DNA of 62,929 nt, counting the filler, from Kipferlia bialata (taxonomy: Eukaryota), in the NCBI GenBank assembly GCA_003568945.1. It is 5 parts of 5 records of this genome, joined end to end, with 100 filler letters (N's around TTAATTAATTAA, not from the genome) between each part and the next. Parts side by side here need not be neighbours in the genome. Positions count along the whole stretch, not along the records: positions 11,590 to 29,690 come from BDIP01000492.1; positions 29,791 to 47,887 come from BDIP01000493.1; positions 47,988 to 58,052 come from BDIP01000494.1; 2 more parts are not named here. One strand, 5' to 3'. Each line of letters opens with the position of its first letter. Within the stretch, counting starts at the first letter, position 1. The position numbers and the translations under genes are program-made. Shown one piece after another: positions 11,670-57,698 of this stretch. The notes beneath the pieces were generated by a model, which saw only the letters and a program-made list of their open reading frames with translations, made no database searches and was not told the DNA's origin.

Positions 11670-14011
11670 GCAAGTCCTCTGCCCTGCGTGTGCTGTGTGG
11701 CCTGTGGGACCATGAGAGAGGCACCATCGAGAGACCCCATGCCATAGGGAACAAGGGTATGAGGATACATATATATACTAGACACATATATCCTGGAGAG
11801 AGACAGGATAATCTGAACCATGCAATCAATACCTTTTCTTTGTACGCCAATCTACCCCTCTTCTTGTTTCATATCTCCCCCTCTCTTGTTGGCTCTCTGT
11901 TATTCTCTCCGTGTAATTCTATCTCACCCAGGCATCTTCTTCGTGCCTCAGTCCACATACATTGTGCACAACAGAATTGATATATGTTAATGTATTTACA
12001 TATACAAATATATATTCCTATATACATGTATATACATCTAACTCACTAGGCATCTTCTTTGTCCCCCAGTCCACCTACATCGTGCACAACGGCAGTCTGA
12101 GGGCACAGATATGTTACCCAATCCCCGAAGGTAAGGTTGTCTATCATCTAGCATTACTAGTAGGATATGCCTGTTCTTAGCAAAAGGCGTACCCAATCCC
12201 TGAAGGTGTATATGAATATGTGTGTGTCTATAGAATTCACACTATACATTGCTTATATGCGATGATATTCTGAGGGCCCAGATATGCTACCCCATTCCCG
12301 AAGGTATATATGTATGTGTAGGTGTGTGTCTATAGAAGTCACAGTATGTATTGCATATCTGCGATGATTTTCTGAGGGCACAGATATATGCTACCCAATC
12401 CCTGAAGGTATGGTACTCTCTACCCATTGAATATATGTCCCATTGTCAATTCTTTAATCAACATGACCATTCCTCATACTAGGCACTGTCTGCAACACCC
12501 CTGACTATGTTTAAGTCTGCCATTTGGCTCTCTCCGTCCCCTCTCTCTATTGTATTATTATATCATCTATGTATATGAAGTAATATATTTACACTTACCC
12601 CAGGCACTGTCTGCAACACCCCCGACTATGTGTTTGAGTCAGCCATGGGTCTGTGCAACCTGGACTATCTGCTGGGGAGGTATCATATATATATATATAT
12701 ACACATGTATCTACATATACTCCTTGCGGCTATATATATATATATGTAGAGAGAGAGAGAGAGCGAGAGAGTATTGGTAGTCTACCATGGGGTTGTGCAA
12801 CCTGGACTACCTGCTCGGGAGGTATATTATTCATACACATACACTAGCTAGATGTTGGCAAGTATGGTTGCCCGTGAGCTGAGAGTCTCTAATGTCTATG
12901 CGATGCTATCAGTATCACCTCTTACCCTTAGGTGCCCTCTCGAAGAGTATACCGAAGTGTGTGGGGATATGTATCTTTATAGAGAAGAATATGTGCTAAA
13001 TAGTTACTAACCCTTCAGGTTCACTCTGGACTCCAAGGAGCCCTGGGCCGAGATCCTGTCAGGTATGTGGTGTCATATCTCCTTCTCTCTCTCTCTCTAC
13101 ACCCTTTATTCACTTACCCTCCAGGTGGAGAGAGGCAGCGTCTGGGTCTTGCCCGTCTTCTCTTCCACTCCCCTGCCTTTGCTGTGATGGATGAGTCAAC
13201 AGCGGCTCTGCCTATTGACATAGAGGCTAGGTACAGACAGAAGTTCATATACATACCGTAAATATGTGTATACGCTATAGTTGTCCGAGGGTCTCCAGAA
13301 GTATCACTATCTGTCCCAGAATGTATTCTTTATATGTACATTGTGTGTATGAATGGTATATCTCTAACCCCCAGCATTCTCTCCGAGTGTGTCTCCTGGG
13401 GCATCACCCTACTCTCTCTCTCTCTATCTCCCACTGTCCCTCTTTCTGACTATATGACTATATTATGTATCATGAGTATCTAACACTAGCATCCTCTCCG
13501 AGTGTGTCTCTAGAGGCATCTGTCTCTCTCTCTGTCTATATATATCCATATAGGTATATCCATAGTATCTAACACTAGCATCCTGTCCGAGTGTGTCTCC
13601 AGAGGCATCACCCTACTCTCTGTGGCACATAGACAGACAGTGTACAGGCACCACAGATACAACCTGCACGTCACAAAGTGAGTATAGACCATTGACACCA
13701 TTGACATAATTACACTATATCATTGCATAGACAGACAGTGTACAGGCACCACAGATACAACCTACATGTCACAAAGTGAGTATACACCATTGATACAATT
13801 GACACAATAACACTATATCATTGCATATACAGACAGTGTACAGGCACCACAGATACAACCTGCATGTCACAAAGTGAGTAGAGGCAGACATTTCACCACA
13901 ATACTAACTCCCAAGTCTTATAGAGGTGCTGTGCTGATATATATCCGTGTACATCTTTAGCTTACAGTCAGGGAGGGATGGGAGCTGAGGGAGTTTGTCA
14001 ACCAGGATTAA
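11670..14011 (+). CDS. ABCD-subfamily half ABC transporter, C-terminal nucleotide-binding domain (5' truncated)
   Basis: Spliced exons give GKSSALRVLCGLW (end of Walker A), IFFVPQSTYIVHNGSLRAQICYP, WAEILSGGERQRLGLARLLFHSPAFAVMDESTAAL (signature and Walker B), GITLLSVAHRQTVYRHH and KEGWELREFVNQD*. Introns contain echo copies of exon ends. Confidence 0.85.
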
Positions 14012-14601
14012 GAGAGAGAGAGAGAGAGAAAGAGAGAATGAATGAGTGAAGTATGGAGAACAGCACCCTTTCAGTCGATGATAGTTCCTTGTGCGTGTGT
14101 GGACTTTCAAAGATTAAGGAGGGTTAGCCTGTCTCTGTGTGTAATGAATAGAATGTGTACTTGACTCAGTCTTCACTCTTGACCAAGGACCTTGGCAAGG
14201 CCAGAAAGGGAAATGAGACTCATTCACTGCCATAATGATTGTGAATTATTGGTTTGGTTACGGTTACAGTGTTTGGTGCCACATCATACTTTCTGTGAGT
14301 GTGAATCAAACACAACACACATCTATTGCATACAACCATTCCTTTCAATTCGGCGCTTCTCTGACTCTGTCACACACTCTCTCTCTCTTTCACGCAGATC
14401 CCTCTCTTTCTCTCTCCCTCTCTCTCACACACATTCTCTCTCATCTCTCAAGCAGATGCATCCCTCTCTCCGTCTCTCTCTCTACGTCTCTATCACTCCC
14501 TTTCAAGCAGAGGCCTCCCTCTCTATCTGTACATAGCCCAGGGTGCCATCAACCAGAGAGAGAGGAGTCCCTCTCTCTCCCTTTCTATCAGCCATTCGGT
14601 C

Positions 14602-17600
14602 TCACACTGATACCTCCCTCTCCTCCCTCTCTATCTGCACATAGCCCAGGGTGCCATCGACCACAACAGTGTCACCGTCCTAATGATTAGACTTATGGAT
14701 ATATGGATATGTGCTGTATACTAATTGATATTGAATACATATGATATACAGATGTTATACAGGGTCCCATCCACCACAACAGTGTCACCGTCCTATTTCA
14801 TTAGAAATACACTAGAATAGAGCATATACAATTATGAAGATCGATTATGTTGTAGTACAAGTAGCCACTGCCACGAACACCCCCCTATCTCTCTGTCTAT
14901 ATGTCTATGTATACATGTACAGTATATTGACACACTACCTTGATCTGTGTACATGCAGCTGCCACTGAGACCACACCTGGCAGGCCCAGCTCCCTGAGGT
15001 GAGGAAGTATTAATAATTCTCATAGTATGGATTACAAGTGTTTCATATGAATAGAGTATGTATATATAAGTATTGTCTCACCTAGCCACGACTGATCCGT
15101 GTGTGAGGTTTCCCCCCACCTCCAGCACAATGGCAGAGGCCAGAGAGAAGACAGAGGTCCAGCCTGTTAATAAGGGGCTAGAGAGAGAGAGAGAGAGAGA
15201 ATGTAGGACAATGGCAGACGCCAGGGAGAAGACAGAGGTCCAACCTATAATAAGGGTCTAGAGAGAGAGAGAGATTGTAGGGAGACTACAACATGAATTC
15301 GAATAAGCCCTTTGGAAGGTAAACATATTATGATTATTCAATAACAGTGTAACACACCTGGGTCCGAGAATGGAGCCACCAGGATGTCTCCCTTCTGAAG
15401 CCTGTAATGAGAAGTGGCCGAAACAAGATAAAGCGTAGAAGGCAACGCATACACAATTTCAGTGTCAGATTGGCAGTAGTATCTTGCATGTATTCCAGAA
15501 GAGTACCTGTGGGCGTCTGAGAGCTTCTTGATGACTCTCGCTGTCCCTCTCACTCTGCCGCTGGAGACACCTGGGGGTGGATAGAGGGTGTAGAGGGATT
15601 GCACTAGAGAGAACAAAGGGTGTAGAGGGAGAGAGAGTTCACAGAAGCAAATAGAAAAGTGTAGATATGGAAAGAAAGACAATTTGTCCAGGTGTAATAG
15701 GAAGAATGTGTAGGCCTATCTATACCTAGCCCTGCCAGTGCCCCCTCTGGCACATTGGCACTAGTAGTATATGCTGTATAGTATCTATTAGTACACACAG
15801 CGATATATATACTTATACTATATATATGTGTGAGTATACCTAGCCCTGCCAGTGCCCCCTCTGGCACATTGGCAGTGACCAATATATATAGTATATCCCA
15901 CACATACATTCATATCCATATCCATCTATATATATACAATAGTACCTGGCCCTACTACTTCATGAGTGTATATGAATATTATATACACGGTTACCTAGTC
16001 CAGGCAGAGCCCCCTCTGGCACATTGGCACCCCTGCCAAGGGCACCGTCATGCACACAGCTAGGGTTAGGATATATACATATATATTAATATATATATAC
16101 ATATATATATCGATACTAGGGCCCATGTGGGCCTAGTACTAGTATATTTAGGATTCCCATATGTCAATTGATATTGCATCACAATGGATATATACACACA
16201 CACATACATTGGGCCCCGACTATGGCTACGATGCCATTATTATCAGGTATGATGCATATGCACTTAAACATCGTGTGTTGTTTCCACATTTCTATACTAC
16301 TGTGCAATTCGCAGGTATACAACCTCGTTTGTCACTATTGCTCATACACATACCCATCCAGTGTTGTTATCACACGGCGCACAGGAGGCTTGGTCTCCAT
16401 CACATCGAGGTACCGGGCTAGCCTTCAGGTTAGTTTGCAGTATATATCGCACTTTGCAAACTCTATATCATCGAGATTATGTATGTATACTCCCAGGGTG
16501 TACATATATCTCCTACCTATCCCTAAGTGTGCCCAAGGTGGGAACCCGAGCTAGGTCAGGGGAAGGGCCGGAGTCAAGGGCTGAGAGGTAAGCTGTAAGA
16601 ACTCAAGAACCTTAATAACACGGCTGCCAGTCCATATTGTGGACGTACATAACAGTGAGGCACAATTCACGCCTATCTGTATCATACTACATACATATAC
16701 TATATCTATATATATAAATCCAACATACCTTCTGCCATTGCAATGACCTCTCTGAATGTGTAACGCTTTCGTATATATATTACATTTACTATATTACATA
16801 TTAATTGAACATATATATTGTAGTATTATACAAGTGAATACCTTCTGCCATTGCAATGACCTCTCTGAATGTGCACATGCTGGCAAGGCCCCTGGGAGTC
16901 AGAACAAGTGGATAGTATGTATACACATACATTATGGATGTATATACACTAATAGTTTCTTTTGCTGGCAAGGCCCCTGGGGTGTAAAAACAAGTGGGAG
17001 CGGAATTACACTGTGAGTGTATTCATCAGTATACTCTTCACTCTTCTCACAGTCTCTGTCTCTAGGTCCCACCCACAAACAAGTACCATATATACACAGG
17101 GGAATACCACAAATCACCACTGTTACCACTCATTCTACACTGTACCTCACAGTCTCTGTCTCCAGGTCCACATCCTCATAGATACCCTTGTCCATGCAGC
17201 CCTGGACAGCCTCCTGGGGGTCAAACAGAGAAAGTATGCATATATATATATATATATATATATCTAGCATATGTATGCAGAGGGTGAGGAGATGGTATAT
17301 AGCAGGTATAGGACACAGCCCTGGATAGCCTCCTAAGGGTTAATAGAGTGACAAAGAACACGTAAAGAAAAGAGAAGGTGAATCACCCTTTGGTAGACCA
17401 CATGACAATGGTGGATTGGGAGATGTTGGGTTGAAGGGCGAAAACGAAAGGAGCAATCATCATATGGGTAACAAATGTACCCACCTCCGCCATGAGAGAT
17501 ATCTCCACAATGTGAGTATGTAGAACAAGAACTATGGGAGTACATTCATACTACACTATACTATGTATTTCTATCATAATATACCCACACACCTCCGCCA

Positions 17601-20600
17601 TGAGAGATATCTCCACAATGTGCCTCATGATGACGTTCTTGGGCACCTCTCTGCAGCCTTAGGGTCAGAAGTATGGTGTCAAACAGTATACTTCATATTC
17701 ATACTATTCATACCTCCACACTCCCTCAGGATGGCACAGTCCCTGTGGAACTTGGCCCTCTTCCTGCCAGACAGAGACGCGCTGATCCTAAGGGTGAGTC
17801 ATGTAGAACTAGAATACATACCCGACTACAATAGATGTCTATGAATACATATATCAACGTCTCAGAATATAGAGCATATACTACTAATCTATGTCGCCCA
17901 TATATTAGTATACCTCTCCATGGCCTCCAGGCACTGAGACTCGAGACTGACATATATATACACACACACATATATATATATACATATGTACTTCTATTGT
18001 ATACACTGCGTCCTCATATGTATACAAATCATATAAATCTATATGTATACCTCTCCATGGCGTCTATGCACTGTGACTGGTGGCTGGCAAAGTCAGTCTC
18101 GCCCTGAGAGTTAGTAATAGCACTAAAAACAAGTGTGTGTGACAGAGAGTGGGAAAGAGACTGTGACTAGAGAATAGGAAGGTCAGTCCCGCCCTACAAG
18201 ATTGAGAGAGAGAGAGAGAAAAGAAGGATATATGTACCTTGAGTGTATGAACTTCACTCTACAAATATACGTGTATACATACATAATAGTATCTATACCA
18301 TTGTCAAATACACATTAACATGTATATGCGTGACTCTACCTGCTTCAGGATGGCCACAGCCTCAGGCGGCAGGTCAGTCCATGCCCAGTCGGCCTAGTGT
18401 AAGACAGAGAGATACAGTATACACATATTGACACTCTGCATCCAAGTCAGGCTATTGTTAGACAACACAAATACATGAATATACATAGATATAGATATGA
18501 ATACATATATATATATGCTGTACCTCCCCCTCCTCACAGTGTGTCTGCACCCTCTTGAGCATGCCAACAACGGTGGTCAGAATGCTAAGATTAGAAGAGA
18601 GTCAACAGATATATATGTGGATACATATTGTATATATATACTGACACTACACCCTCTTGAGCATACCAACACTGGTGGTCAGGATACTGGAAAGTGAGAA
18701 GATGGATGCTACTTGAATAATGTAGATGTATAATTATGCTATATACATCCATACCTTGTTGGGTCCTCGTTGAGCCTTGGCCTCCCAATGTCAAACTCAC
18801 AGGGGCCACGGTGCATCCAGGTCTGCATGACCCTAGGGGTAAGTATATATACATGAGTGCATAGAACACATGAATCTATGGTATATATATACAAATGCAT
18901 GTAGGTAGACACACTGTGCACCCAGGTCTGCATGACCCTAGGGATTAGTAACACTATCGTATAGTATACGCATGAAGGTAGGAATAATACATATACTGCA
19001 TATACCTCTTTACAGCACTGTGGAACTCAGGGTATTCTGTCTGCAGGGACCCCACAAACTATACAGTATATATAGTATATCTATATATATCTATATATAT
19101 ATATAGTATATAGTGATATCATACCTCTTTATGGATGCATGGAACTCGGGGTACTCAGTCTGCAGTGACTCCACAAACTCCACAGTCTGTCTGGCCTCGA
19201 GGAAGATGTCTGGGGTGCCTGTGGCCTAATGGTTAGGACACACTGGTGGGAATAGTAACACAATATCAACTATACACACACACTAATTCATAAAAGCAAT
19301 ATACTGAATCGTGTACTCTATACACACCTCCCTGACCCATGGTGTCTGTAACAGCGGTATACACATATAAACTCACTATATATATATATAGTATATATAT
19401 AGTATACATATATATATCTATATATATATACTACATACACACCTCCCTGACCCATGGTGTCTGTAGGAGCAGTGGCACCAGGGTGGGGTTGAGGGTGTTG
19501 CATCTGACGGCCTGGGGTTACGTATAATATGGGATATCAAATGATATATGTATACAATAGGAGTACTGTACCTCAGTGGCTAGTGCAGCTATATCTCTGT
19601 TCATCTCTGCCGTTGGGTTGTGGTCCATGGCCATCACAAGTATATGCTATANNNNTCATCTCTGCCGTTGGGTTGTGGTCCATGGCCATCACAAGTATAT
19701 GCTATATATACATATACTATATACATATACTATACACATATATATACACTATGTACCTCTAAGGCCAGAGCTGCAATGTCCCTGTTCATCTCAGCCGTTG
19801 GGTTGTGGTCCATGGCCATCACAAGTAAATATATATGTATACAACACATCTATACACACACACATATATATATATATATATACTACACTACCTCTACTGC
19901 TAGGGATGCTATGTCCCTGTTCATCTCTGCCGTTGGGTTGTGGTCCATGGCCATCACTAGCAGGGCAGGGTCAGCACCGATGGCCTCAAAGAGAGGGGTG
20001 ACCCTCTTCTAGAGGGTTAGCCCACGAGTATATACACATATATATATTTAGGGGCAGGGTCAGCTCACCATATACGAATATATATATGTGTAAGCATGAA
20101 TATACTTACGCATACCTTGCATGCCATCTTGCATATGAGTGGTCCAACGTCATCAACAACATATATACATATACATTAAATGCAGTCTAGATATCTATAA
20201 ATACACAAGCACTGTGTACACAAGCATATATATGTGTGTAAGTACACTACCTTGCACGCCATCTTGCATATGAGTGGTCCAACGTCATCAGCAACAGCTG
20301 AGGCACTATCAAGGGAGGCCTCGAATGCTACTCTGATATATTAGGGGTGTAGGGGGAGAGAGACAGAGAGAGAGAGAGAGAGGCAGAGTCAAGGGAGGCC
20401 TGGAAGGCAACTCTGATATATATGGGGTGTAGAGAGAGAGAGAGAGAGAGAGAGCACTGTCAAGGGAGGCCTCGAAGGCTACCCTATGTATTAGGGGTGT
20501 AGAGAGAGAGAGAGAGAGAGACAGAATGGCACTGTCAAGGGAGGCCTCAAAAGGTACTCTATGTATAAGGGGTGTAGAGGGGGAGAGAGATAGAAAAGGG

Positions 20601-20730
20601 AGCCAAGAAAGGCCACACTATGCATAAGGGGTGTAGACAGAGAAGAGAGAGATATACCCACCTGAGCCTGTCTGAGAGAGAGGCCTCGGGGAGCAGGGCC
20701 TCGACCTGGAGGGTAAGATAAGTATACAGA

Positions 20731-20761
<31 letters not shown>

Positions 20762-21299
20762 TGATAGAGAGAGAGAGAGAGAGAGACTGAGGCCTTGGGG
20801 GCAGGGCCTGGATCTAGGTGTTCAATACGAATATGTGTATGTGTAGACCTATCACGGTAAAGATGTGCATATACACAAATACACTATACCTGTGCCACCC
20901 TGCACTCCTCCACATGGCAGAGGTAGTTGGCCCTCGGCTAAATGTATACTAATATGTATATATATATATATATATATATACNNNNNNNNNNNNNNNNNNN
21001 NNNNNNNNNNNNNNNNNNNNNNNNNNNNNNNNNNNNNNNNNNNNNNNNNNNNNNNNNNNNCCAATTGATTAACTGTATATATTACCTGTGCCACCCTGCA
21101 CTCCTCCACATGGCAGAGGTAGTTGGCACCAATGGGTCTGGCGGCTATGGTAAGTAGAGGGATGACACGTAAATATATGGTTATAGGTATAGATATAGAC
21201 ACCTCTATGTACAGAGCTGTGCAGAGAGGGTGAGTAGGTATGAAGATGACAATGCGTAGTTGGCACCAGTGTGTCTGGCGGCTATTGTTAAGAAGTGAT

Positions 21300-21331
<32 letters not shown>

Positions 21332-24300
21332 GTATATATAGATATGATCCCATACCTGCGAGTGACTCCTCCAGAGTGTCCTGCAGCATGTCCTGAGGGT
21401 GAATAAAGGGCGTAGAGGGAGAGAATAAAGGGTGTAGAGGGAGATAATAAAGGATGTAGAGGGAGAGAATAGAGGGTGTAGGAAAAGGGCATAGGTCATC
21501 ACACCTTGTTGTTTCTGACCCTTCTGATACTCTTGACTATGTATGTATATTTATATACACACATACAATCACATATGTACTTATAATGAACTGACCTTGT
21601 TGTTCCTGACACTTCTGATACTCTTGACTATGCCCCACAGTCTCCTGAGGGGGGATGGTATATATATATACACATACATACTCATATATATACATATATA
21701 TATATATATATTGAACTGACCTTGTTGTTTCTGACCCTTCTGATGCTCCTGACTATACCCCACAGTCTCCTAAGGGGGGCAGCCAGGAAGAAGGAGTGGG
21801 TCTTGTCGATCTAGTCATAAGTCATAAGCCATGCAACAATATATAGAGTATAGTAGGTAGTCCGTAGCACAAGTAGTATGAGTAGATGACAAGGAAGAAG
21901 GAGTGGGTTTTGCCGATCTAAAGCGTTAGTGGGGCTATTCTATGAATATGGAACAGAATACTGAAACCATAGATTCGACTCACTCATCAAAATATATATC
22001 TCCGTTCCTCCCCTCTGTCTCTCTCCATCTATTAATTGTCTTTACATATATGGGTACAATGTACATGTGTATACCTTCCCGTTCCTCCCCCTTGGCTTGT
22101 ACCTCTTACTCCATGTCATATATGCATATCGCATTAATTACCTAGACACCTATGGAGTGTGTATATACGTTGTTGTTTGAGAGTATATACCTTTCCTTTC
22201 TTCCCCCTTGGCTTGTACCTCTTGTATAAGTGTACCCCTTATCTCTCTCCATCTATTAATTGTATTCACATATATATGCATGAATATATGTGTCATACCT
22301 TCCCGTTCCTCCCCCTTGGCTTGTACCTCCTACTCCATGTCATATATACATATCATATTAAGTACACCAAGAGTGTGTATACACTGTTGTTTGAGAGTAT
22401 ATACCTTCCCGTTCTTTCCCCTTGGCTTGTACCTCTTACTCCATGTCATATATGCATACCATACTATTTACAGTGACACCTGCAGAGCGTGTATATATGT
22501 TGTTGTTTGAGAGTATGTACCTTCCCGTTCTTGCCCCTTGGCTTGTACCTCTTCCACAGGGGGGACTGCTGGGCAGCAGCAAGGGCGGCATCGACCTTTA
22601 GTAAGGTGCTATTACACTATACACATCTACATGTACATAGTGTATTGAAAATAGTATATAGTGTATAAATAGGACTGCTGGGCAGCAGCTAGGGCGGCAT
22701 CGACATTCAGTAAGGAGTATAGTACTATAACACACTATACATGATTAATGTATAGTAGCACAAATCTATCTGTATATGTACATATATATCCATCATGAGC
22801 AGTGAATATTGGCAATAGAATAGAGTATATATGTGTAATAATAGTATGAATGTATCTATATACACCTGTGGGTCTGATGCAGCTCCTATGTCCATCATGA
22901 GGAGTGTATATTGGCACTATTTTTGACAATACTTGTATAATAGTAACAGTAATACATATATCTCTATACACCTGTGGGTCTGATGCAGCCCCGATATCCA
23001 TCATCAGGAGTGTGCTTCTGAGGAGACGGTTGTGGGTGAGCATGCCTATTGTTACAAGAGAAAATGGGAGAGAGGGAAAGGGAATAGAGAAATCAATGTG
23101 TAGAAAGACTTGAGGTGTGCGTGTTTGCCTAAGACACACAGGAAAAGAATGAGAGAGTACTTGCCTGACACGTCGCACCACAGGTTGAACTGGTCATCCT
23201 GGGGGGTGAGTTGATCGTAGTATAGAGAGTATATATAGTGTAAATCGTATTAATAATATATAGTATCAGTATCAGTATATACTGAACGGTCATCCTGGGC
23301 GAGAAGAGCATATTGATCCGAAGACGTAGCGGAGTCCTATTACTATCATATGCGTCTGCATTTAGGTATACCTGCAATGTGCTTGGGAACCTGTCCACCC
23401 CTGTGCCTGTATCTAGACCCCTCAGGGCAGACATGAAGGAGGCACCGCCTAGAGTAAGAGACTGTATGGGAAACATACACGTACTGATATATACATATAT
23501 GGAGAGTATATGTCGTATATATGTATCTAGACCCCTCAGGGCAGACATGAAGGAGGCACCGCCTACAGGGTGAGAGATAGACACACATACACACACACAC
23601 ACACATATATATATACACAAATATAGAGAGAGAGAGAGAGAGAGGGACAGAGAGACGTACCGAGGGGTGTGATGGGGTCACTCATGTTCAGTATCAGTAT
23701 ATACTCTCTCATATACGTATATACACATATTTACACACACATATATACATACACATTAATAGATAGAGAGAGGGAGGGAGAGACGTACCGAGTGGTGTGA
23801 TGGGGTCACTCATGTTCTGGAGGGGGCCTGACAATAAGGGTGTAGAGAGGGGGAGAGATACTAGACTCATTCATATACAAAGGATAGTAAATTGGAAGCT
23901 ACGGTAAGGGTGTAGTGGAGAGAGGAGTAGTTTCAAATGTCATTGACAAAGACATGGCAAATAATAGTTGTGAAAAGCTACCATTAATGACACGGCAAAC
24001 AATAGTTGTGAAAAGCTATTGATGATGACGCACCGAAGTTGAATAGAGAAAGAGAGAGAGAGAGAGAGACGCACCGAAGTTGACTAAGATGTGCTGCACT
24101 GTGTGATCTGGTGTCTTGCCAGTGGCCACGATGTCCATGAGCTGGGGGTGGGATATTGCAATTCAATATTGNNNNNNNNNNNNNNNNNNNNNNNNNNNNN
24201 NNNNNNNNNNNNNNNNNNNNNNNNNNNNNNNNNNNNNNNATACGTATTATACATTATAGTATTGTATGCCAGTGGCCACGATGTCCATGAGCTGAGGGTG

Positions 24301-25330
24301 GGGTGATGAAGTGAAATATAGAAGTGTAGAAAGGAACATAATCTACAATAGAATATTTCTATTCATTGGGGTGCGCCATGGAGACAATATGTACACACAC
24401 ATGTACATATACATCGATGGATATATATATGTCTATATATGCATATGCACTATATACTCACTACTACCTCCATCCTGACAGCCTGAGTTGAGTGTAGCAT
24501 GGAGTATATCAACTACTAACAATACTGAACTTACATATTCGTACTCATATACTGCACACATGTCTCATACAATGTACTGTACCTCCCTCCTTACAGCCTG
24601 TGTGGGGTGCATCATCGAGACAATATACACTAAGGTATATATATGGCTGTGTACTATATACTATATACCTCCCTCCTGACTGCCTGTGTGGGGTGCATCA
24701 TGGAGGACGGGACAGGGCTGAAGGTGATCCTGAGGGTCGGAAACGTATGTATTCTCACATGACCCATTAGCAATAATTGTTTCTAGTAAAAACTATATAT
24801 ATCATTGATACATCATGTTTGTATCATAAAAGACTGTTACTAGTATAGTATACACATATATATATATATGCTCACATATACATACCTCGGTGCATCGAAG
24901 AGTGATGTGATGGGCCGAGACTCCCTCTCTACACTATCTCTCTGTCTAAACATATATATAGTATCTCTCTGTCTAAACATATATATAGTATCTCTCTGTC
25001 TAAACATATATACTATTATAGTGTTCCCTGATATATATAAATGTATGTGTTTACACATATGTACCTAGGTGCATCGAAGAGTGATGTGATGGGCCGGGAC
25101 TGCAGGATGTACAGCTCTCTGTCGTTGCCTGAGGGTAAGAGTATGTATGAAGTGAGTATAGGGGCACTATCAATAGTATCTCTCATGTTACGGCAGATGT
25201 CTGTTGATATATATGGACGTGCCTGTTACCTGAGGATTAGAAGTATATCTCAAAAAGTCTCCGTATTTACAGAGATACCCTCGTGTCCCTTGTCCACACA
25301 AACTCGATGTCCTGGGAAAACTCATCTCTT

Positions 25331-25370
<40 letters not shown>

Positions 25371-39668: not shown

Positions 39669-39782
39669 CCTGTTAGTGAGTATTGAGGCAAATACACGCA
39701 CCCAACCGACCTGACGGGACACACGAAACCCCACAACTCCCACAGCTCCCCCAAAACATAGCCTAGCATCCACCCCACTTAC

Positions 39783-41559: not shown

Positions 41560-43203
41560 CTACTTGCCAGTGGCGTCCATCTTGGCGAGAAGGGTGGGCG
41601 CAATGACTACGTCTCCGCCCTCACTACCCCTGCCCTTCCCACGCCTGTTCCTCTTGCGCTTACCTCCCTCCCCTTGTCCCTTGCCCTGTCCCCCTCCGTT
41701 GGGGTTGCTCTGCTTGGCAGGACGGGCGGTGGAGGGCCTCCCCTGCCCCTGCCCCTGGGGTTGGGACTGGGCATTGGCCGCAGACTTGGCCTTGGCCGCA
41801 GCCTCTGCAGCGCGCTCTCTCTTGCGACGCTTCTGCCTCTGGTTCTTGCTCTCGGTAGGGGGGGCACTCTGCACTGCAGGAGCAGTCACCTGGGCTGGGG
41901 CGCCCTGGGGTCTAGGCCGCACCACAGGGGTAGGCTGAGGCACAGCTGTCTCTGCCTTGCCTCTCCCCTTCTGGGGTGGGGCAGCAGTGGCAGGGCGGGG
42001 CTTGACGGTGACAACGGTAGGCACGGCCTGGGGAGCCGGTGCCTGTCCCTTACCTCCTCTGCCCTTACCCTTACCCTTCCCCTTCCCCTTCCCCTTCCCC
42101 TTGCCGGACTCCTTCTCCTTCTTCTTCTCTCTCTCCCTCTCTCTCTCCCTCTCCTTCCTCTTCTTCTGCTTGGACCCACCAGAGCCACTGGCAGCGGCAC
42201 TTGCATCCCTGGAATGAGACGTAACAGGTGTGTCTCTATCTCTTAGTACACACCACTGATACGGATACTGATGCATACCTGCACAGGGCCAGAAGACTGT
42301 CGTTGACCTCGGTCCTGTCATGTCCCTCTTCCACCTAACAGTAAGAGAGAGTCAGTCAGTGAGAGAGACAAGAGTCTGACAAGCAATGATAACCTTAGGT
42401 GGCTCGGGGTCGGCCACGCCGTGCTCAAGGAATGTGCGGAAGGTGGGGGCTAGGGGTAAATAGACTGGGACAATAGTGTGAGAGACTGCAAACACATATG
42501 ATTATGAGTGAGGGAGAGTATATATCATTGTGTCACTCACATGCACACATGGGGTTGAGCTGGGGAGGGTTCCTGGCGAGCAGGCCACCGAGCTTGTGGA
42601 CCTAGGAGTGAGTGACAGGACGACACGAATATGACCGGAAGAAGGTGGGGGAGGGAGAGGAATGGCAACACAGAGTAAGGGCCAAAGAGGGCGAGTACCC
42701 CATAAACCAAGCTGCTGAGTAGACTGATGACCAGTATATACAAGTGCACAAGGGAAAGGGTAACTCACTGTACACAGTCAGTGGATACTCACATATACTA
42801 CACCAACCTGCTTTGGGGCCTGCCACCCACAGGCAGACACATGCATTCCGCTGGGGCGATCTGGTAGGTGCGTGCAGTTCTGGGCTGCCTGCACTGCTGC
42901 CTTGTGGTTGAAGTACTGGACAACAAGGGAGGTCTGGACAGAAGGGTGACGAATCAGGCTGGAATAGGCCGCACGCCCACCCAAGCTCGACACAAATGAC
43001 TTAATATCCTCATCCTCGGGTATTTTGGTCACCAAGAGCCTGGACGGGTTTGTGATGAAGGCGGGAGGCCTCTTTTCATCCCTCCTCGACCTATTCGAAC
43101 CACCTCCACGACCCTTCCTAGGGGGCTTCCGGGCGCCCTCTTTTGGCTTGCCCGCACCCTGTGCTGGTGCTGCAGGCTCTCCATCCTTCCCCCCCTTTCC
43201 CAT
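41560..43203 (-). CDS. RRM-like + basic/low-complexity protein, tentatively UPF3 (Smg4)-like
   Basis: Five spliced exons: SRLLVTKIP...VVQYFNHKAAVQAA...APKQ | VHKLGGLL | SPTFRTFLE | NDSLLALCR | KQKKRKERERERE.... The order of elements resembles UPF3 (KVVIRRLP...GTI..DPEY.KFLE...TPLL.FL...K/E/R-rich). The start codon is uncertain. Confidence 0.45.
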
Positions 43204-43434
43204 GACTGCTAGGGGCACAGTATGGAGAGGCCCTTCAGCCCACCTCATCAGAGTCTGATTCAGACTGCACCCCTTCAAGAGCTTGACCGGTGTTTTTGTT
43301 CTATTCCTCAGAGTGGACTCTCTTTGCAACATAGTACAAAGGTGGGCCACACACGGGCTCTGGTGCCTTACACATTGTTCTGTGCCTTCCACTTACTCAC
43401 CCTAGCTCGTTAGACTGACCTTGTTGCGGCTCAC

Positions 43435-44379
43435 ATGGCACAAGACAAGAAGGGCAAGGGCAAGGCCAAGTCACAGGGTACGAGTAATCTATTACGCTTG
43501 TCGCCACACACTTGGGCTCAGGGCTGAAACATCCTTTGTATTGTGAGCAGTGACTCTGCCTCTGTTGGTGGCATTGTTCGTTATTTCTCTCCCTCTCCCC
43601 CTGTCTTGGCAGTGTCTAGTATATCCTCTGACTCTAGTATACATATATCCTCTGACTCCAGATGTGACCAGGCAGTATGACGATAAGGACCATGCCAAGA
43701 GGATCAGACGGGCCCAGATCCTGCCAAGGTATAGTGATACCTCTCATGTCTCTATGTCTATCCCTCTCACTCTCCCTGACCCCCCAGACAGAGGGTGACC
43801 TCGGAGATTGACCTCTTCTCCCACCTGGCACAGGACGTGGTGGAGGTGGGCACACTCTATCACTATTGTCTAGAACTGATCTTTGTTACTGGTAGGCACC
43901 CTTCTCCTCTGCATAACTATGCGTGACTCCTCTCACCCCAGACCTCCTACACCGCCCCCCTTGGTCTGGGCACCCTGCCTGACCCCTGTCTGCTGCATGG
44001 GAGACAGGTGGCCAAGGTGGACGGCACAGAGCTCGGGGCAGGGGCTAGGTACTCAGACTCATGGATACAAAGTAGTATTGATACATTATACACACATATA
44101 CCAACATTCCTGCTCGGGCTCGGCAGGGCTAGGTCAGGGATATATATGCAGGGTTACAGATTCATCCATCCTGTCTCAGTACCCCCTTACCCCAGGACAT
44201 ACGGACAGATGCTGGGGACTGGTCAGATTGACTCCCCAAGTGCACAGGTATGGATGGTATAGTATGACTATATATGAAGTGTTCTATTTGTGCACTCTTA
44301 GGGGAGAGGTCAGATTGCCCATTCTCTCTCTCTCTCTCTCTCCCTCACCCCAGGTGACTGCCTTTGCCCAGTCCCTCCT

Positions 44380-44415
<36 letters not shown>

Positions 44416-44517
44416 CCCAGGTGACTGCCTTTGCCCACTCCCTTCTACTCTCTCTCTCCCCACTCCCCCCCCCTCTCCCTCACCCCAGGTGACTGCCTTT
44501 GCCCAGTCCCTTCTGCT

Positions 44518-44557
<40 letters not shown>

Positions 44558-46300
44558 ACCCACCAGGTGACTGCCTTTGCCCAGTCCCTCCTGCTCAACC
44601 TGTCCACCCTGGAGCTGAGGAGGGCACAGTCCAAGGAGGAGGCATCGGAGGCCAGGACACTCTTGAACAGGTATATATGTATTTATATATCTGTATATAT
44701 ATATATATTATATTGGTGATATATATGTATATATGAACAGTCCAAGGAGGAGGCATCGGAGGCCAGGACACTGCTCAACAGGTGCATATCCATATTTGTA
44801 AATATGTGCCATTTCATTTGCGCATGCCTCTCAAGTCGATGCAGTTATTTATCTATCCCTCTTACACGATAGGGCAGACAAGGAGCGCCGCAACAGCACC
44901 CTTGGTGACAAGCAGGTCAGGGTCGACACAACAGCCATGCCATGGGACAGGTGGGGAATGCTTGTCACACTTGTATCTCCTCTCCTCTTGTCTGTTCCCG
45001 TTGTGGTCCTATATCATACTTCGTGTCTCTATTTGTGTGTATCTCTCTGGATCCACCTTTCTGACTGTACCTTGTTCATATATATATATATGTCTGTCAT
45101 TTCCCTGTGTCTATATCTCTGTCCCGTCTGACTCTATCAGGGCGTGCCTTGTGCAGCTCAATGTCTACCATCTCTCTCTCTCTCTCCATCTATTCTTTAN
45201 NNNNNNNNNNNNNNNNNNNNNNNNNNNNNNNNNNNNNNNNNCATCTATTCTTTACATATGATATATCTTTGTGTCTGACTATAGGGCCTGCCTTGTCCAG
45301 CTCAATGTCATCAGCCAGTACACCAGGGACTGCCACGCGCCACTCCCCATCGGTATGGCCCAGATCAATGCCCATGCTACTATTTGTGACAGTGTCTTGT
45401 GCTATACTCTCCCTCTCCCTCACCCCTCAGCCACTGGCAACTTCATCCGGTCTGTCAAGTCCATGATATCACAGGTCCAGGCACAGGCACCAAGACTATC
45501 TCTGAATGAGGTGGGGTATATGTATATATATATATATATAGGTCCAGGCACCCAGGCTGTCCCTCAACGAGGTGGGGCACTGTCTCATACAATACAGATG
45601 TGTGCATTTATATACATGTGTATTGATGTCTATCTTTCTCCTCCCTCACCCCAGGAGGGATGCTTCAAGGCCCTCAAGGGAGGGGTGGAGAGGTATCTGG
45701 ACCGTCACGTGTTTGCAGCTGGCAGGTACTCAATGGTTGTTGTATTGACTAATTGTATATCTATAATAATCCTTGAGAGTGGTGTCTTTATACCATGATA
45801 AATGTATCCATTTCTGTATATAGGATATGGGTCTTTTCATGGTTAGTATGTCTCTATGTCGCTCACCCCCAGGGACATTGCCGCCACCGCTGCTGCCCGT
45901 ATCGTACCTGGAGACACCCTTCTTCTCTATGGAAACTCCAGGTACATTAGTATATTGTTCATCATGGAATCCCTTGTTACACTACAGAGCTGATGAGTGT
46001 ATGTGTGCACGTCGGTTCTCACCCTAGGATGGTTGAGCGTGCCTGCCTGATTGCCTGGCAGAGTCTGAGCCTCACCCACCTCCAGCCATTCTCAGTGGTC
46101 GTGGTGGACTCTAGGCCCCAGGACCTGAGGTATATAGACAACACACACACACATATATATTGACAGCACATACATATATGTAAATACAGCCTGAGCACTA
46201 TCAACCCCAGGATTGCCAAGACCCTTGTCCAGGCTGGCATCTCTGTCTCGTACTGCATGCTCAGTGGGCTCCACCACGTCATGGCATCGGTGTCCAAGGT

Positions 46301-46342
<42 letters not shown>

Positions 46343-46383
46343 GTATTATATCCGTCATGGCATCGGTGTCCAAGGTGTGTACA

Positions 46384-46414
<31 letters not shown>

Positions 46415-46582: not shown

Positions 46583-46620
<38 letters not shown>

Positions 46621-47559
46621 CTAACTGTGNNNNNNNNNNNNNNNNNNNNNNNNNNNNNNNTCTCTATATATATATCTAACTGTGACCTCACTAATGCAGG
46701 CACCGCCCTGATCTGCTCCATGGCCAAGGAGAGGCACATCCCTGTCCTGTGTCTGGCAGAGACATTCAAGGTAACCCACTGTATACTATATATACTATAC
46801 ACTGTGTATACCCCACTCACTCTTTAGTTCACTGACCGTGCCTGCTCTGACTCTCTTGCCTTCAATGAGGTCGGGGACCCAGCCGTGATTGCACACATCC
46901 CAACCCGCATCGGTATCATCCAGGTACACAGCCATACTCAAACAATATACGTATAATATTATGTATATAAGTATAATTATTACTCATCCGGACTTCCCTC
47001 ACCTCAGGATGTGGCTGTGGCCCCCAAGGCCAACACCATTGTGTCGGAGGATGAGGTATTACTTAGGGGACTTACAATCAGTATGTTTCCAGTATCTCTT
47101 CTATTCTCCCTCTCTCTCTCTCTCTCTCCATATATATATATAACCCAACACCAGAATGCCCCCACCCATGAGGCCCCCCTGGCTGAGACCACCGATGACC
47201 TCTGGGCCAGACCCAACGTGTCCATCGCCAACATCAGACACGACCTCACACCCCCAGACCACGTACGGTGCTATATACATATATATATATATCAATACAT
47301 AGTCTGCTCTATGTAGTTATGAGTTAGATACCACAGGTATCATTGGATTATGTAGGTAGTACCATATCTATGTCTCAGCTGACCCCTCAGGTCAATGTGC
47401 TCGTGACAGAGAACGGAGAGGTGCCACCATCTAGTGCAAGGTGAGAATGGGTGTGTGGATGATTGGTCTTGTTGTTGGTCTGACCCCAGATACATTTGGG
47501 GATCCCTTGCCGGCCAGGACTACATCGACTGGCGCACCTTTGGAGGCAGGGAGACCTAA
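43435..47559 (+). CDS. EIF2B4: Translation initiation factor eIF2B delta subunit
   Basis: YDDKDHAKRIRRAQILPR, IDLFSHLAQ, RIVPGDTLLLYGNS, FSVVVVDSRP, VSKVITGTFAVLGSGAVMSRAGTALICSMAKERHIPVLCLAETFKFTDR..SD..AFNEVGDP, NIRHDLTPPDHVNVLVTENGEVPPSS; stop at 47557-47559. Confidence 0.88.
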
Positions 47560-47887: not shown

Positions 47888-47987
47888 NNNNNNNNNNNNN
47901 NNNNNNNNNNNNNNNNNNNNNNNNNNNNNNNTTAATTAATTAANNNNNNNNNNNNNNNNNNNNNNNNNNNNNNNNNNNNNNNNNNNN
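47888..47987. other. Artificial scaffold linker
   Basis: N44-TTAATTAATTAA-N44. Confidence 0.98.
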
Positions 47988-48341: not shown

Positions 48342-49788
48342 GTTCTATTATGCCTCTATGCACCATGTGGAGCTATGGATGGCATATCCCAAGAGGAGGG
48401 GAGAGAGAGAGACATAGACAGTGTGTCTGGAGGATGCGAAGGGGGGAGAGAGAGAGAGGCTCTTCAAGTGAGGAGAGGAGGAGAGAGAGAGAGAGAGACC
48501 ATGCTAGACATGGGGGTCAAGTCCTGGCCCAGCTGTGTCACCAGTAACACACTGCCATTCAGCTATGGAGACAACGCACACTATGCGACAGGTAGGTTTA
48601 TACTACTAGTATATTATGTGGAATTTGTAGTAATCCATATTTCATACTAAATCGGTGAAGGGCTTACCAATGCATCCACAACAATCTATTTATTTCTCTC
48701 AGTTTCTCTCTCTCTCTCTCCCTGCGCCCTTATATTAGGCCATGGCTATGACTCTGGTGTGACCCATGCCTCCACTCTGAGTGTGGATGACACCCCATAC
48801 CTATCAAGCACTGGCATATCGGTAAGTATAGTATATATATATATATATATGTGTGTGTATATAGTATTATTATATGTATATAGTATATATATACTACACC
48901 ATACCTATCAAGCACTGGCATATCGGTATGTATAGTGTAGAGTGTATAGTGTATAGTTCTACGCTAGTCATGTGACCTCTGTCTTTCTTTCTAGGCCCAT
49001 TTATATATATGTGTATACTATATCTCACCCCTAGGTAGCTGATGACGCTGGAGTATAAATATATTTATATATATACAGATATTGTAGCTGGAGTGATATT
49101 GTAGGTGGTATTTCGCTCTCTAAATATCTCTCTCTATTCCTGTATATATACCTCTGTCTCACTCCAGCTATCCGATGACGCTGGTGTGTGTGTATATTTA
49201 TACGGAAATTCCTATGTATATATCTGTATATTTATGCAAATATAGCTATGCTCACCTATATCTATATGTCTACTACAATACTATTCTTTATACCTCTGTC
49301 TCACCCCCAGCTAGCTGATGACACTGGAGTGTTTGCTCCATCCCCTGCTGACCTCGGGAAGGTATGTATCCCGCTCAGTGGATTTTCTTCTTTCCCATTC
49401 ATCTGTCTCCCTCGCTCTACACCCTTAATCCTCTCACCCTACACCCTTAATACCCAGGTTGTGGGTGTGGAGGCAGGGGACAACGTGTCATTTGTGTGGA
49501 CAAGGTATGTTTATATACATACACACATATATTATATGTTAATCTTTCGAGGGGGTGGAGAGGGAGAGAGAGAGTGCTTTGGAGATATCAGAGAGTTCTT
49601 TCCTTCTTGTCTATTCCATATACTCTCTCTCTCTCTCTCTCCTCATTCCCAGGTCAGGCAATCTCCTTGTTGTTGGGTCGACATCATACGGGCTGACAGG
49701 TATGTACCATCAATATTATTTCATATCCCTGCATGCCTTGCATCGGTAGATAACGACACTGCCACCACCTCCCTGTCTGCCTTCACTA

Positions 49789-49826
<38 letters not shown>

Positions 49827-55747: not shown

Positions 55748-55779
<32 letters not shown>

Positions 55780-57698
55780 GTGTGTGTGTATATTCATACT
55801 GTATATGCATAGTGATAGTGAGGGTGTCACTATCAACAGGGACAGTGACCGCAGGTACTCTGTATATATGTATATATACATTCACAGTATCAGTAGTGTA
55901 TTCTAACCCCAGGCCAGGCTGCCATTGAGGGCATCTATACATACTATTGCATCATTGCCATATATTACATAGACATAGACACATTGTAGCAATCTAACCC
56001 CAGGCGAGGCTGCCATATAGCATATTATCAGTAGTGTATTCTAATCTAAGGCTATATACATGCATATATGTATTATTGCTAGTCTAACCCTAAGGCGAGG
56101 CTGCCATTGAGGGCATCTATGCCGGTGACAACTCCACCTCTGAGGGATGTGGGCTGGCAGTGATAAACGAGGTATATAAGATACATATAATGTGTGTGTG
56201 TATCTATATATGTATATGCTACATCACCTCTGAGGGGTGTGGGCTGGCAGTGATTAATGAGGTAAGTAGGATATATACAATAATAGGTATATAAAATAAT
56301 TTCAATGAGTATATATATATATAAATATATATGCTTCTCCACCTCTGAGGGATGTGGGCTGGCAGTGATTATTGAGGTATATTGTATGCATATGTCTTGT
56401 CTCCCCAGTCAAGAGATGTAGTATACTCTATCCCCCCGCTCTCTTACCCTAGGACGATGCTTGCCTGTGGCTGATACTCTCTCTCTCTCTCTTCCTCCAC
56501 GTGTATCTCTTATGCCCTAGGACGATGCCTGCCTGTGGGTGATACTGGATGTGGACGACCTGGTGGTGTCGGAGGTATGATTATAAATGTAAATTATGTA
56601 CTACATAACTATATATTAGCAACTTTTGCTATTGTATATTAATTTACTATGTTATGATGGATGTGGATGACCTGGTGGTGGCAGAGGTATAGTATCAAGT
56701 ATATAGCTGTATATTTACTATATCCACTCTATACTACTGTACAAGTACGGTATATATGTATACTCATATTACTATATGTTATGATGGATGTAGTGGTGGC
56801 AGAAGTATGTATGTAAGCTTAGTGGTAGTACATATACTGTTTTCTCTAACCGTTACCCTTTCCCATGGCTACATTGTGTGCTGGCGACTCCCTGATTTTC
56901 ATATACATACATGTATGTATATACCAGGTCATTGTATCAACTATATATACAGTTTCTGTATAAGTCTCACACCTGTCTCCTATAGCCACCTTGTGTGCCG
57001 GTGACTCCCAGGTATATATACGAATACACGTATATTGATATATATACAACAGACTAATATATATATAGTTCTGCTTTTATATCTCCAGTCTCATCCTAGG
57101 CACCGTCCTATGGTCACATTGTGTGTGCCGGTGACACCCAGATAGATGAGGAGAGCTTCACCCGGTATAACGACTTCGGGAAGTTACTGCTAGGTGTGTA
57201 TATACAGTGTATTAATATGTAGGTATTTGTATAGAAGTGTCCATATAGGTATATACAGATAGATGAAGAGAGCTTCACTCGGTACAACGACTTTGGAAAG
57301 CTGTTGTTAGGTAATCAGGCGATATATATAGCATATAGAATTCCAGTATGCTATGAATCGATGATGCATCCTCACTTCGGCGCTGCTACTGTCTCTCTCT
57401 CTTTCCTTCTCTCTCCTTCTGTCTTTATATCTAGTATTGATTCTCCTCTCACTGTAGGCACTGACTTTGAGCAGGCTGGTAATGTGTATGTGGTGCCATA
57501 CACAAGAGGGAGGCAGAGGACAGTGTTGAGTGAGGTATATCTATGTCAATTATTTAGAATAAATTCTGTCCCAATATATTCTAGTAAATATAAACTCACC
57601 CCCAGAGCACTGGTCTTGTCTCTGCTGACTTCTCCCGCATAGTCACAGCCACACTGGAGGCCAGACACGTGTGCCCACAGGTATATATGTATATCCAC

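What the first reader, a model, noticed from the sequence alone, without database searches (positions are those of the whole stretch)
11932..57310. Exon 'echoes': truncated intronic copies of exon ends that differ from the real exon almost only at synonymous sites
Seen: in the ABCD, RPH-like, PSMA5, dynein, eIF2B-delta and RCC1-like genes (three different scaffolds), introns contain 1-4 copies of 25-60 nt of the adjacent exon end plus its splice site. They are spaced about 60-130 bp apart and break off mid-exon into (TA)n/(CT)n or other intron-like sequence. In seven pairs aligned by hand (11932/12050, 12270/12097, 12781/12639, 15204/15123, 44738/44627, 45545/45484, 57256/57139) I count 37 synonymous and 1 non-synonymous nucleotide differences, including first-position Leu changes (CTG/TTG). 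These pairs were hand-picked, and some other echoes do carry indels or replacements. Established: a dead duplicate should gain roughly three times more replacement than silent changes. Inference: the echoes carry a protein-level selection signature although canonical splicing cannot include most of them. Candidate mechanisms are (a) recombination between very divergent alleles, with one end in the exon and the other in a microsatellite; (b) frequent conversion or collapse that keeps swapping echoes into the exon, so they act as spare cassettes; (c) non-canonical RNA processing or DNA rearrangement at the direct repeats. I know of no described system like this.
Basis: partly seen in the sequence, partly recalled or inferred. 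Interest (0 to 1): 0.92.

Follow-up and report, generated by a model that had tools for sequence, protein, structure and literature searches.

The report
Silent half-exon copies crowd protist introns
In the free-living protist Kipferlia bialata, 60 of 110 exons in six genes are flanked by stacked half-copies that the RNA skips where this was checked, yet the copies differ from the working exon mostly at silent positions, likely because they keep being overwritten by working versions of the exon from very different alleles.

Summary
The echoes are real. An unbiased search of 110 curated exons found 123 half-exon copies beside 60 exons. Upstream copies carry AG plus the 5' half, downstream copies the 3' half plus GT, and none is a whole exon. 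In the one 4.5-kb stretch checked against reads, DNA contigs span the arrays without differences and the RNA contig uses only the whole exons. The unbiased count is 285 silent to 179 replacement differences, pN/pS 0.20 (CI 0.16-0.25), against 0.58-0.60 for a dead copy. Changes private to one echo are also silent-biased (16:8), yet 14 echoes carry small gaps. The layout is a known kind: lancelet 'mirages', human F7 IVS7, CBS 844ins68. I found no report of this density, a protist case or the protein-level signature. Toy simulations reproduce the signature only when echoes exchange very often with live alleles in a species of about 20-30% silent diversity; 'spare cassette' collapse alone fails. 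That diversity is not shown: no second allele was seen in this culture.

The parts
11670..14011 (+). ABCD-type ABC transporter, 3' part: 7 exons, 9 kept echoes at 3 exons, dN/dS 0.065
11932..11972 (+). 5' echo (AG + first 41 nt) of exon 12050-12130; 5 silent, 0 replacement differences
12269..12407 (+). two 3' echoes of exon 12050-12130 with the same breakpoint and homologous spacers; 4 silent, 0 replacement differences between them; the second has a 2-nt insertion
12483..12821 (+). 5' echo (12483-12523) and 3' echo (12779-12821) around exon 12604-12679
13375..13873 (+). two 5' and two 3' echoes around exon 13579-13677
14602..29211 (-). RPH-like PEP-utilising enzyme: 45 exons, open for 1,018 codons, 58 kept echoes at 33 exons, dN/dS 0.195
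15205..15242 (-).
15726..15874 (-). two 3' echoes of exon 16059-15995, identical in their exon part but with unrelated spacers
20380..20558 (-). three 5' echoes of exon 20332-20251, each ending in a CT run
22075..22437 (-). four 3' echoes of exon 22595-22521, with spacers of two alternating types (higher-order repeat)
25285..25756 (-). two 5' and two 3' echoes around exon 25583-25493, including protein-divergent copies
29857..31129 (-). PSMA5 gene: 4 modelled exons, 3 echoes at exon 30554-30453, no silent bias
35246..37238 (+). dynein heavy chain fragment: 11 exons, two 5' echoes (35509-35539, 35836-35863)
44354..44781 (+). three 5' echoes and one 3' echo (44737-44781) around exon 44567-44670
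45540..45571 (+). 3' echo of exon 45431-45510; 6 silent, 2 replacement differences
48378..57990 (+). RCC1-like gene: 23 exons, 44 echoes at 17 exons, dN/dS 0.22; my model is identical to the public model P0122 over 627 residues
53057..53620 (+). four 5' echoes and one 3' echo around exon 53367-53438
54042..54935 (+). stretch spanned by one DNA contig (X1 record 2, depth 392, 0 differences): 3 exons and 3 kept echoes
56340..57681 (+). stretch spanned by one DNA contig (X1 record 7, depth 400, 0 differences): 4 exons and 6 kept echoes; the RNA contig uses only the whole exons
57256..57310 (+).

Best explanation
The echoes are tandem arrays of half an exon plus its splice site (mirage-like repeats), skipped in the mRNA where this was checked, that likely keep a protein-level signature because they are repeatedly rebuilt from working exons of other, highly divergent alleles. 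Shown: layout, presence in DNA and skipping in RNA at one locus, the silent bias on echo-private branches, shared breakpoints, and occasional frame-breaking gaps. Inferred step 1 (seeding): a break in an exon is repaired by copying from a homologous template, and the extended end rejoins by microhomology at a TA or CT run. This leaves a tandem duplication with one end mid-exon. Whole-exon duplicates would be spliced in and removed by selection. Inferred step 2 (upkeep): short exons are the only well-conserved homology, so misaligned pairing between an echo and the live exon of the other chromosome adds, removes or overwrites units. New echo sequence, with its splice signals, comes from an exon that was working until then. 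Inferred step 3: differences between copies are therefore mostly allelic differences already filtered by selection, plus a little decay afterwards. This predicts silent diversity of about 0.2-0.3 in the species.
For: (1) Polarity: 53 of 56 upstream copies are 5'-anchored, 61 of 67 downstream copies are 3'-anchored, and none has both ends. (2) DNA contigs of run X1 cross 9 kept echoes with 0 differences at ordinary depth. The X2 RNA contig matches 8 listed whole exons with 0 differences and contiguous record positions, and 9 of the 19 echoes in the stretch lie wholly in bins without RNA. (3) In 25 exon-echo-echo triplets, changes unique to the exon are 19 silent and 7 replacement, to the nearer echo 16 and 8 (P=1.4e-5 against neutrality), and to the farther echo 36 and 28. 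Every branch looks like a working exon. (4) Neighbouring echoes share the breakpoint in 24 of 37 pairs (null mean 8.7, max 19 in 5,000). In the 11 pairs with homologous spacers, spacers differ by 20-22%, silent sites by 29% and replacement sites by 6%, so constraint outlasted the junction. (5) Echo splice signals look as good as live ones: GT 53 of 55, AG 43 of 46, branch-like motif 31 of 43 against 76 of 104 live and 5 of 99 control. Yet only 31 of 93 flanks resemble the live flank above the 95th percentile. (6) Toy simulations match the data (pS 0.20-0.32, pN/pS 0.17-0.22) with exchange between homologues, silent diversity 0.19-0.32 and exchange at 300-1,000 times the mutation rate. Same-chromosome conversion in a sexual, diverse population came close (pS 0.24, ratio 0.26). 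(7) In the lancelet BflGb6 mirage alignment (PMC3087553 supplement 4) I count by eye 17 silent and 5 replacement or stop differences in three distinct units, and four of the silent states equal the other haplotype's live exon. (8) Supplementary Data 2 of PMC8516963 lists for K. bialata no Rad51A, Rad54 or Ku70, but Dmc1, Rad52, Spo11, Pol theta, XPF and Msh3. Dmc1 stabilises mismatched joints (PMC6719624), and Pol theta joining of aborted repair gives tandem duplications (PMC8654963).
Against: No divergent allele was seen. At the RCC1-like locus no other letters were listed, two exon-bearing bins have exactly the depth of one DNA contig, and only one long RNA contig was laid, so this culture looks homozygous there (contigs drop rare variants). 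No second strain could be examined: X5 and X6 gave nothing real, and the metagenome scan gave one distant hit. The exchange rate that the toy model needs is very high, and a crossover-only version never fell below 0.43. No mosaic (four-gamete) pattern was found in 6 arrays of three or more echoes, which have few informative sites. Outer echoes are not more diverged than inner ones (14 versus 14 of 29 arrays). Junction microhomology was seen by eye, not quantified. Reads were laid on only 4.5 kb of one gene.
Confidence: 0.55

Rival explanations
1. The echoes are scars of one or a few hybridisations between divergent lineages. During loss of heterozygosity, repair on the diverged homologue left half-exons that had been working until then, and little exchange has followed.
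For: Four-fold divergence is fairly even across echoes (0.25; chi-square 134 on 103 df). The locus now looks homozygous. Every branch is silent-biased.
Against: Arrays of three or four copies carry different private variants, and neighbours share old junctions whose spacers have diverged by about 20%. Both need several donors or repeated exchange.
Confidence: 0.15
2. The echoes are translated at times (another life stage, rare non-canonical splicing, or programmed DNA collapse), so selection acts on them directly.
For: This needs no special population genetics. Splice signals are intact and the ratio follows the gene.
Against: The RNA contig uses only whole exons, and 9 echoes lie in RNA-free bins. 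No GT follows any of 56 upstream echoes, and AG precedes only 6 of 67 downstream ones. 14 of 123 echoes have gaps, 14 of the 15 gaps are not multiples of three, and 2-3 stop codons occur. Silent variants offer no evident benefit.
Confidence: 0.1
3. Spare cassettes: within one lineage, echoes are often swapped or collapsed into the live exon, so selection keeps them coding.
For: Shared breakpoints and a higher-order repeat show unequal exchange. Conversion from an echo-bearing allele into the live exon is proposed for human CBS (PMC2630376).
Against: The same exchange that exposes an echo to selection also erases its silent differences. All 15 clonal runs gave pN/pS 0.53-1.11 and private ratios of 0.55 or more, against 0.20 and 0.16 observed.
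Confidence: 0.07
4. Assembly artefact: short-read stitching of haplotypes or strains at microsatellites.
For: The public assembly is a short-read SPAdes draft of a likely diploid (PMC5874029). Some duplicates flank N gaps. Run X1 is flagged as a possible source of this DNA, so it is not an independent sample, and no long reads were seen.
Against: Separately assembled contigs of 928 and 1,380 nt cross the arrays with 0 differences at ordinary depth. Mid-exon junctions without GT or AG cannot be made by joining intact alleles.
Confidence: 0.04
5. Ordinary dead tandem duplicates, with the silent bias coming from hand-picking and detection.
For: The unbiased ratio (1.6:1) is far weaker than 37:1, and some decay is present.
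Against: Dead copies run through the same search give 0.58-0.60 (minimum 0.435 in 160 runs), while the observed CI is 0.16-0.25. The four-fold versus two-fold contrast has P=4e-14.
Confidence: 0.03

Closest known systems
Amphioxus 'mirages' (Adh3, BflGb6, BflGb9). PMC3087553: passages and supplement 4 read. The original paper (PMID 12087171) is not held and was not seen.
   Same: Tandem repeats whose unit spans an exon-intron boundary, at either boundary. Splice signals are duplicated, splicing is normal, and turnover is thought to be by unequal crossing-over. By my eye count the BflGb6 units also differ mostly at silent sites.
   Different: Reported at a few loci of one animal group, with units 81-100% alike over their whole length. 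Here 60 of 110 exons in six genes of a metamonad protist carry them, and most spacers are unrecognisable while the exon part is kept. The main text of PMC3087553 does not contain 'synonymous' or 'gene conversion'.
Human F7 IVS7 37-bp VNTR (PMC1557585, abstract read)
   Same: An array of duplicated donor sites behind an exon, of which only the first is used.
   Different: One locus, with pseudo-sites identical in sequence; the abstract describes no codon-level divergence.
Human CBS 844ins68 (PMC2630376, introduction and passages read)
   Same: A duplicated intron-exon junction in which the upstream partial exon is spliced out and differs from the live copy; gene conversion into the live exon is proposed.
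   Different: A single 68-bp allele whose skipped copy carries a replacement rather than silent changes.
Pol theta tandem duplications from aborted SDSA (PMC8654963, passages read)
   Same: Direct tandem copies from about 100 bp upward with microhomology junctions; K. bialata has PolQ and lacks Ku70 (PMC8516963, Supplementary Data 2).
   Different: Seen in repair mutants and not tied to exons; this could explain seeding only.
Silent-cassette conversion systems (trypanosome VSG, Neisseria pilS, chicken pseudo-V; recalled, not read)
   Same: Unexpressed partial gene copies kept in coding shape by exchange with an expressed copy.
   Different: Those systems diversify one protein, whereas here the differences are mostly silent and sit in unrelated genes.

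Membership tests
mirage minisatellites | tandem unit spans an exon-intron boundary and duplicates the splice signal | tested here: met
   114 of 123 echoes end-anchored; GT 53 of 55, AG 43 of 46; spacing 61-196 bp
mirage minisatellites | both 5' and 3' boundaries can be duplicated | tested here: met
   56 upstream and 67 downstream echoes
mirage minisatellites | normal splicing is not disturbed | tested here: met
   one RNA contig joins only whole exons at the RCC1-like locus; the other genes and rare isoforms were not checked
mirage minisatellites | units alike over their whole length, as in a minisatellite | tested here: inconclusive
   true for some arrays (11 of 23 shared-breakpoint pairs; 31 of 93 flanks above the 95th percentile) but not for most
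mirage minisatellites | copy number differs between haplotypes or cells | not testable with these tools
   only contigs of one culture; no variant listed
mutually exclusive duplicated exons | complete exons with both splice sites that enter mRNA | tested here: not met
   0 of 123 have both ends; absent from the RNA contig
intron gain by tandem duplication of AG/GT proto-splice sites | the duplication junction supplies a new GT or AG | tested here: not met
   GT after 0 of 56 upstream echoes, AG before 6 of 67 downstream echoes
silent-cassette antigenic variation (recalled) | donor copies enriched in replacement differences that diversify one protein | tested here: not met
   pN/pS 0.20 with conservative replacements
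Pol theta tandem duplications | microhomology or templated insertions at the junction | tested here: inconclusive
   many junctions run into CT or TA repeats by eye; old junctions are blurred and no statistic was computed

The most novel reading that the evidence does not exclude
Across its genome K. bialata keeps an archive of other alleles inside its introns. Recombination that relies on Dmc1, without Rad51A or Ku, pairs only at short exons and constantly swaps half-exons between live exons and neighbouring echoes. One homozygous-looking genome would then record a population sample with about 25% silent diversity, and untranslated DNA would carry a protein-level signature at thousands of exons.
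Probability: 0.35. Interest if true: 0.85.

Novelty: new variant of a known kind. Interest (0 to 1): 0.62.

Why it matters
If the reading holds, untranslated intron sequence can carry a full protein-selection signature without being used, which matters for anyone who infers exon function from dN/dS. It extends mirage-type repeats from a few animal loci to a dense gene feature in a protist: each echo adds about 110 bp, and median intron length rises from 96 bp with none to 232 bp with one and 348 bp with two. It makes three things testable: silent diversity and sex in a free-living metamonad from single genomes; the genomic footprint of repair without Rad51A and Ku; and how a short-intron spliceosome picks one of up to five near-identical splice sites.

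Tried and rejected
No whole genome was held, so nothing genome-wide was tested. The idea of an exon inserted into its own middle, with paired 5' and 3' breakpoints, was not supported: overlap SD 16.5 nt in 26 exons, P=0.94 against the length-scaled null, and upstream and downstream echoes are not associated (P=0.22). An age gradient from inner to outer echoes was not found (14 versus 14 of 29). A mechanical three-base periodicity was rejected by the four-fold versus two-fold contrast. Paralogues as donors: one RCC1-like exon found only its own protein among 100 candidates (weak evidence), and the RPH-like gene was not searched. Other strains: X5 gave 2 low-complexity pieces and X6 none; the small word shares of X5-X11 are not evidence; the metagenome scan with RACK1 gave one 58% hit. 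A crossover-only simulation left array ends saturated and never matched. Nineteen of 142 raw hits were dropped before counting (13 by hand as low-complexity, chance or gap-overlap hits, 6 for score under 30), and keeping them changes pN/pS from 0.20 to 0.22. Paper searches listed no report of these repeats in Kipferlia, and 'duplicat' does not occur in the genome paper's main text. The original mirage paper could not be read. No structure or complex prediction was run, since it does not bear on the question.
Full report
Source. The window is a string of scaffolds of Kipferlia bialata, a free-living fornicate: the Ran protein is 100% identical to a record of that name, and an RCC1-like exon hits KIPB_002808. 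The public assembly is a short-read SPAdes draft of 51 Mb with 124,912 introns, judged diploid from k-mer peaks (PMC5874029, parts 1-3 of 6 read). No whole genome was available here, so all counts are for this window.

Gene models. I curated six genes, 110 exons in all, each reading open with AG and GT/GC boundaries. The RCC1-like model is identical to the public one over 627 residues. Single exons matched ABC_tran, PPDK_N, PEP-utilizers, RCC1, Proteasome and Dynein_heavy, mostly below cut-off; 3 of 10 gave no hit. An annotation-free repeat search put 171 of 174 near-tandem pairs inside these six gene regions and only 3 in the rest of the window.

Observation. Each exon was aligned to both adjacent introns. 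142 hits scored 26 or more (null q99 27, max 33 in 1,256 comparisons), with mismatches at codon positions 1, 2 and 3 numbering 122, 80 and 320. I dropped 19 (13 by hand, 6 for score under 30) and kept 123 at 60 of 110 exons. Upstream copies hold the 5' part (53 of 56) and downstream copies the 3' part (61 of 67); none has both ends. Median length is 36 nt and median spacing 109 bp. GT is kept in 53 of 55 and AG in 43 of 46 assessable copies, and a branch-like motif lies before 31 of 43 echo acceptors, 76 of 104 live ones and 5 of 99 controls. The junctions supply no new splice site (0 of 56 GT, 6 of 67 AG).

Are they real, and are they used? Contigs of four runs were laid on 53540-57990. DNA run X1, flagged as a possible source of this DNA and so not an independent sample, has contigs over 54042-54935 and 56340-57681 with 0 differences at depth 392 and 400. 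Other listed X1 contigs have depths of about 230-480. These two contigs cross 9 kept echoes. No other letters were listed, and the 15 joints shown have 20-25 letters on one side and look like low-complexity hits. Run X2 (RNA by guess) has one 3,013-nt contig whose eight listed pieces are my whole exons, with 0 differences and contiguous record positions; the 54-nt exon at 56521 fits the unlisted gap. Nine of the 19 echoes in the stretch lie wholly in bins without X2 depth. X5 and X6 gave nothing real. So at this locus the arrays exist in DNA and the main mRNA skips them. Contigs drop rare forms, and the other five genes were not checked against reads.

The silent bias. The fair null is a copy dead from birth beside a live exon that still gains silent changes: 0.58-0.60, minimum 0.435 in 160 runs. 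The bias follows codon meaning: third-position transversions occur at 125 of 767 four-fold but 16 of 487 two-fold sites (P=4e-14), while transitions are alike. Replacements are conservative (mean BLOSUM62 -0.05 against -0.47, P=0.0015), and the ratio tracks the gene: ABCD 0.065, eIF2B-delta 0.09, RPH-like 0.195, RCC1-like 0.22. PSMA5 and dynein have too few differences to say. The echoes also decay: 14 have gaps, 14 of the 15 gaps are not multiples of three, and 2-3 stop codons occur.

Which lineage carries the bias? In 25 exons with two overlapping echoes, changes unique to the exon are 19 silent and 7 replacement, to the nearer echo 16 and 8 (P=1.4e-5 against neutrality; not different from the exon, P=0.76), and to the farther echo 36 and 28. 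Each copy thus diverged mostly as a working exon would. Neighbouring echoes share their breakpoint in 24 of 37 pairs (null mean 8.7, max 19), so arrays grow from an existing unit. In the 11 of 23 pairs whose spacers are still homologous, spacers differ by 20-22%, silent sites by 29% and replacement sites by 6%. Flanks are often unrelated even where the exon part is identical, and flank similarity does not follow exon-part divergence (93 echoes, rho 0.05 and 0.08). Results against my reading: no inner-to-outer gradient (14 versus 14 of 29 arrays), no four-gamete conflicts in 6 larger arrays, and no second allele at the one locus laid.

Mechanism. In a toy forward model (36 sites, two echoes, 150-200 chromosomes), all 15 clonal runs gave pN/pS 0.53-1.11, because the exchange that exposes an echo to selection also erases its silent differences. 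Sexual runs with low diversity gave 0.54 or more at the observed silent divergence. The data (pS about 0.26, ratio about 0.2, private ratio 0.16) were matched by exchange between homologues with silent diversity 0.19-0.32 at 300-1,000 times the mutation rate, and approached by same-chromosome conversion in a sexual, diverse population. A crossover-only version never matched. I therefore read the echoes as arrays seeded by aborted homologous repair closed at TA/CT microhomology, then rebuilt from live exons of divergent alleles. Both steps are inferred. The repair kit fits: all examined Fornicata lack Rad51A and metamonads lack NHEJ (PMC8516963, section 8 read); its Supplementary Data 2 lists for K. 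bialata Dmc1, Rad52, Spo11, PolQ, XPF and Msh3, but no Rad54 or Ku70 (rows seen; one picture-only supplement was unreadable). Dmc1 stabilises mismatched triplets (PMC6719624, abstract and section 17), and Pol theta joining of aborted SDSA gives tandem duplications of about 100 bp to 10 kb in worms (PMC8654963, passages).

Comparison. An earlier finding of this scan pointed to lancelet 'mirages', which I checked in PMC3087553 (passages and supplement 4): tandem repeats spanning either exon boundary, with normal splicing, length instability and units 81-100% alike. By eye, three distinct BflGb6 units differ from their exon by 17 silent and 5 replacement or stop changes, and four silent states equal the other haplotype's live exon. 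The main text does not use the word 'synonymous'. Lancelets are highly polymorphic (recalled), which fits my model. Human parallels are F7 IVS7 (PMC1557585, abstract) and CBS 844ins68 (PMC2630376, introduction and passages). The echoes work like mirages; whole-unit homogeneity is met only in part, so I file them as a variant rather than plain members. They are not mutually exclusive exons, intron-gain intermediates or diversifying cassettes. Searches listed no report for Kipferlia or of this signature, but 'mirage' was never searched and the original mirage paper is not held.

Verdict. The feature is real and its layout is known. Its density, its occurrence in a protist and the protein-level signature on skipped DNA appear unreported. 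Best explanation 0.55, interest 0.62, new variant of a known kind. The decisive test is silent diversity among isolates.

Noticed in passing
window 14514-14555 (-): An echo of the RPH-like last exon lies behind the stop and reads on in frame to a stop of its own, with no splice site, so echoes also form where no donor exists.
   Followed up: partly
window 23163-23164 (-): A GC donor (GC-AG intron) after exon 23198-23165 is needed to keep the RPH-like frame open; the genome paper counts only GU-AG introns.
   Followed up: no
window 22075-22437 (-): The four 3' echoes have spacers of two alternating types, a higher-order repeat that points to duplication of a two-unit block.
   Followed up: partly
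window 58153-60250 (+): An echo-free gene part with longer exons and a likely membrane anchor follows the gap. The RNA contig runs about 1 kb past 57681, so this may be the 3' part of the RCC1-like gene, with a sharp change in echo density within one gene.
   Followed up: no
window 57940-57990 (+): The last RCC1-like segment, also in the public partial model, runs into a CT repeat and has no RNA depth; it may itself be a 5' echo of an exon beyond the gap.
   Followed up: partly
window 46606-46684 and 45185-45255: Short identical duplicates on both sides of N gaps look like unmerged scaffold overlaps rather than echoes.
   Followed up: partly
window 24935-25012, 23948-24018, 21402-21481, 59750-59806: Intron-only tandem repeats exist but are few compared with exon-containing ones.
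   Followed up: no
window 14602-29211 (-): A PEP-utilising enzyme resembling bacterial rifamycin phosphotransferase (likeness recalled) is split into 45 exons of 34-117 nt; if laterally acquired, it gained introns heavily.
   Followed up: no
window 1-11489, 31200-35100, 37300-43400: RPS3, RACK1, Ran and several other genes have no echoes, so echo load is strongly gene- or region-specific.
   Followed up: partly
PMC3087553 supplement 4 (lancelet BflGb6): Lancelet mirage units also differ from their exon mostly at silent sites and share states with the other haplotype's live exon (eye count).
   Followed up: partly
PMC8516963 Supplementary Data 2: Four Dmc1 and five Rad52 gene models are listed for K. 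bialata; these may be fragments or an expansion.
   Followed up: no
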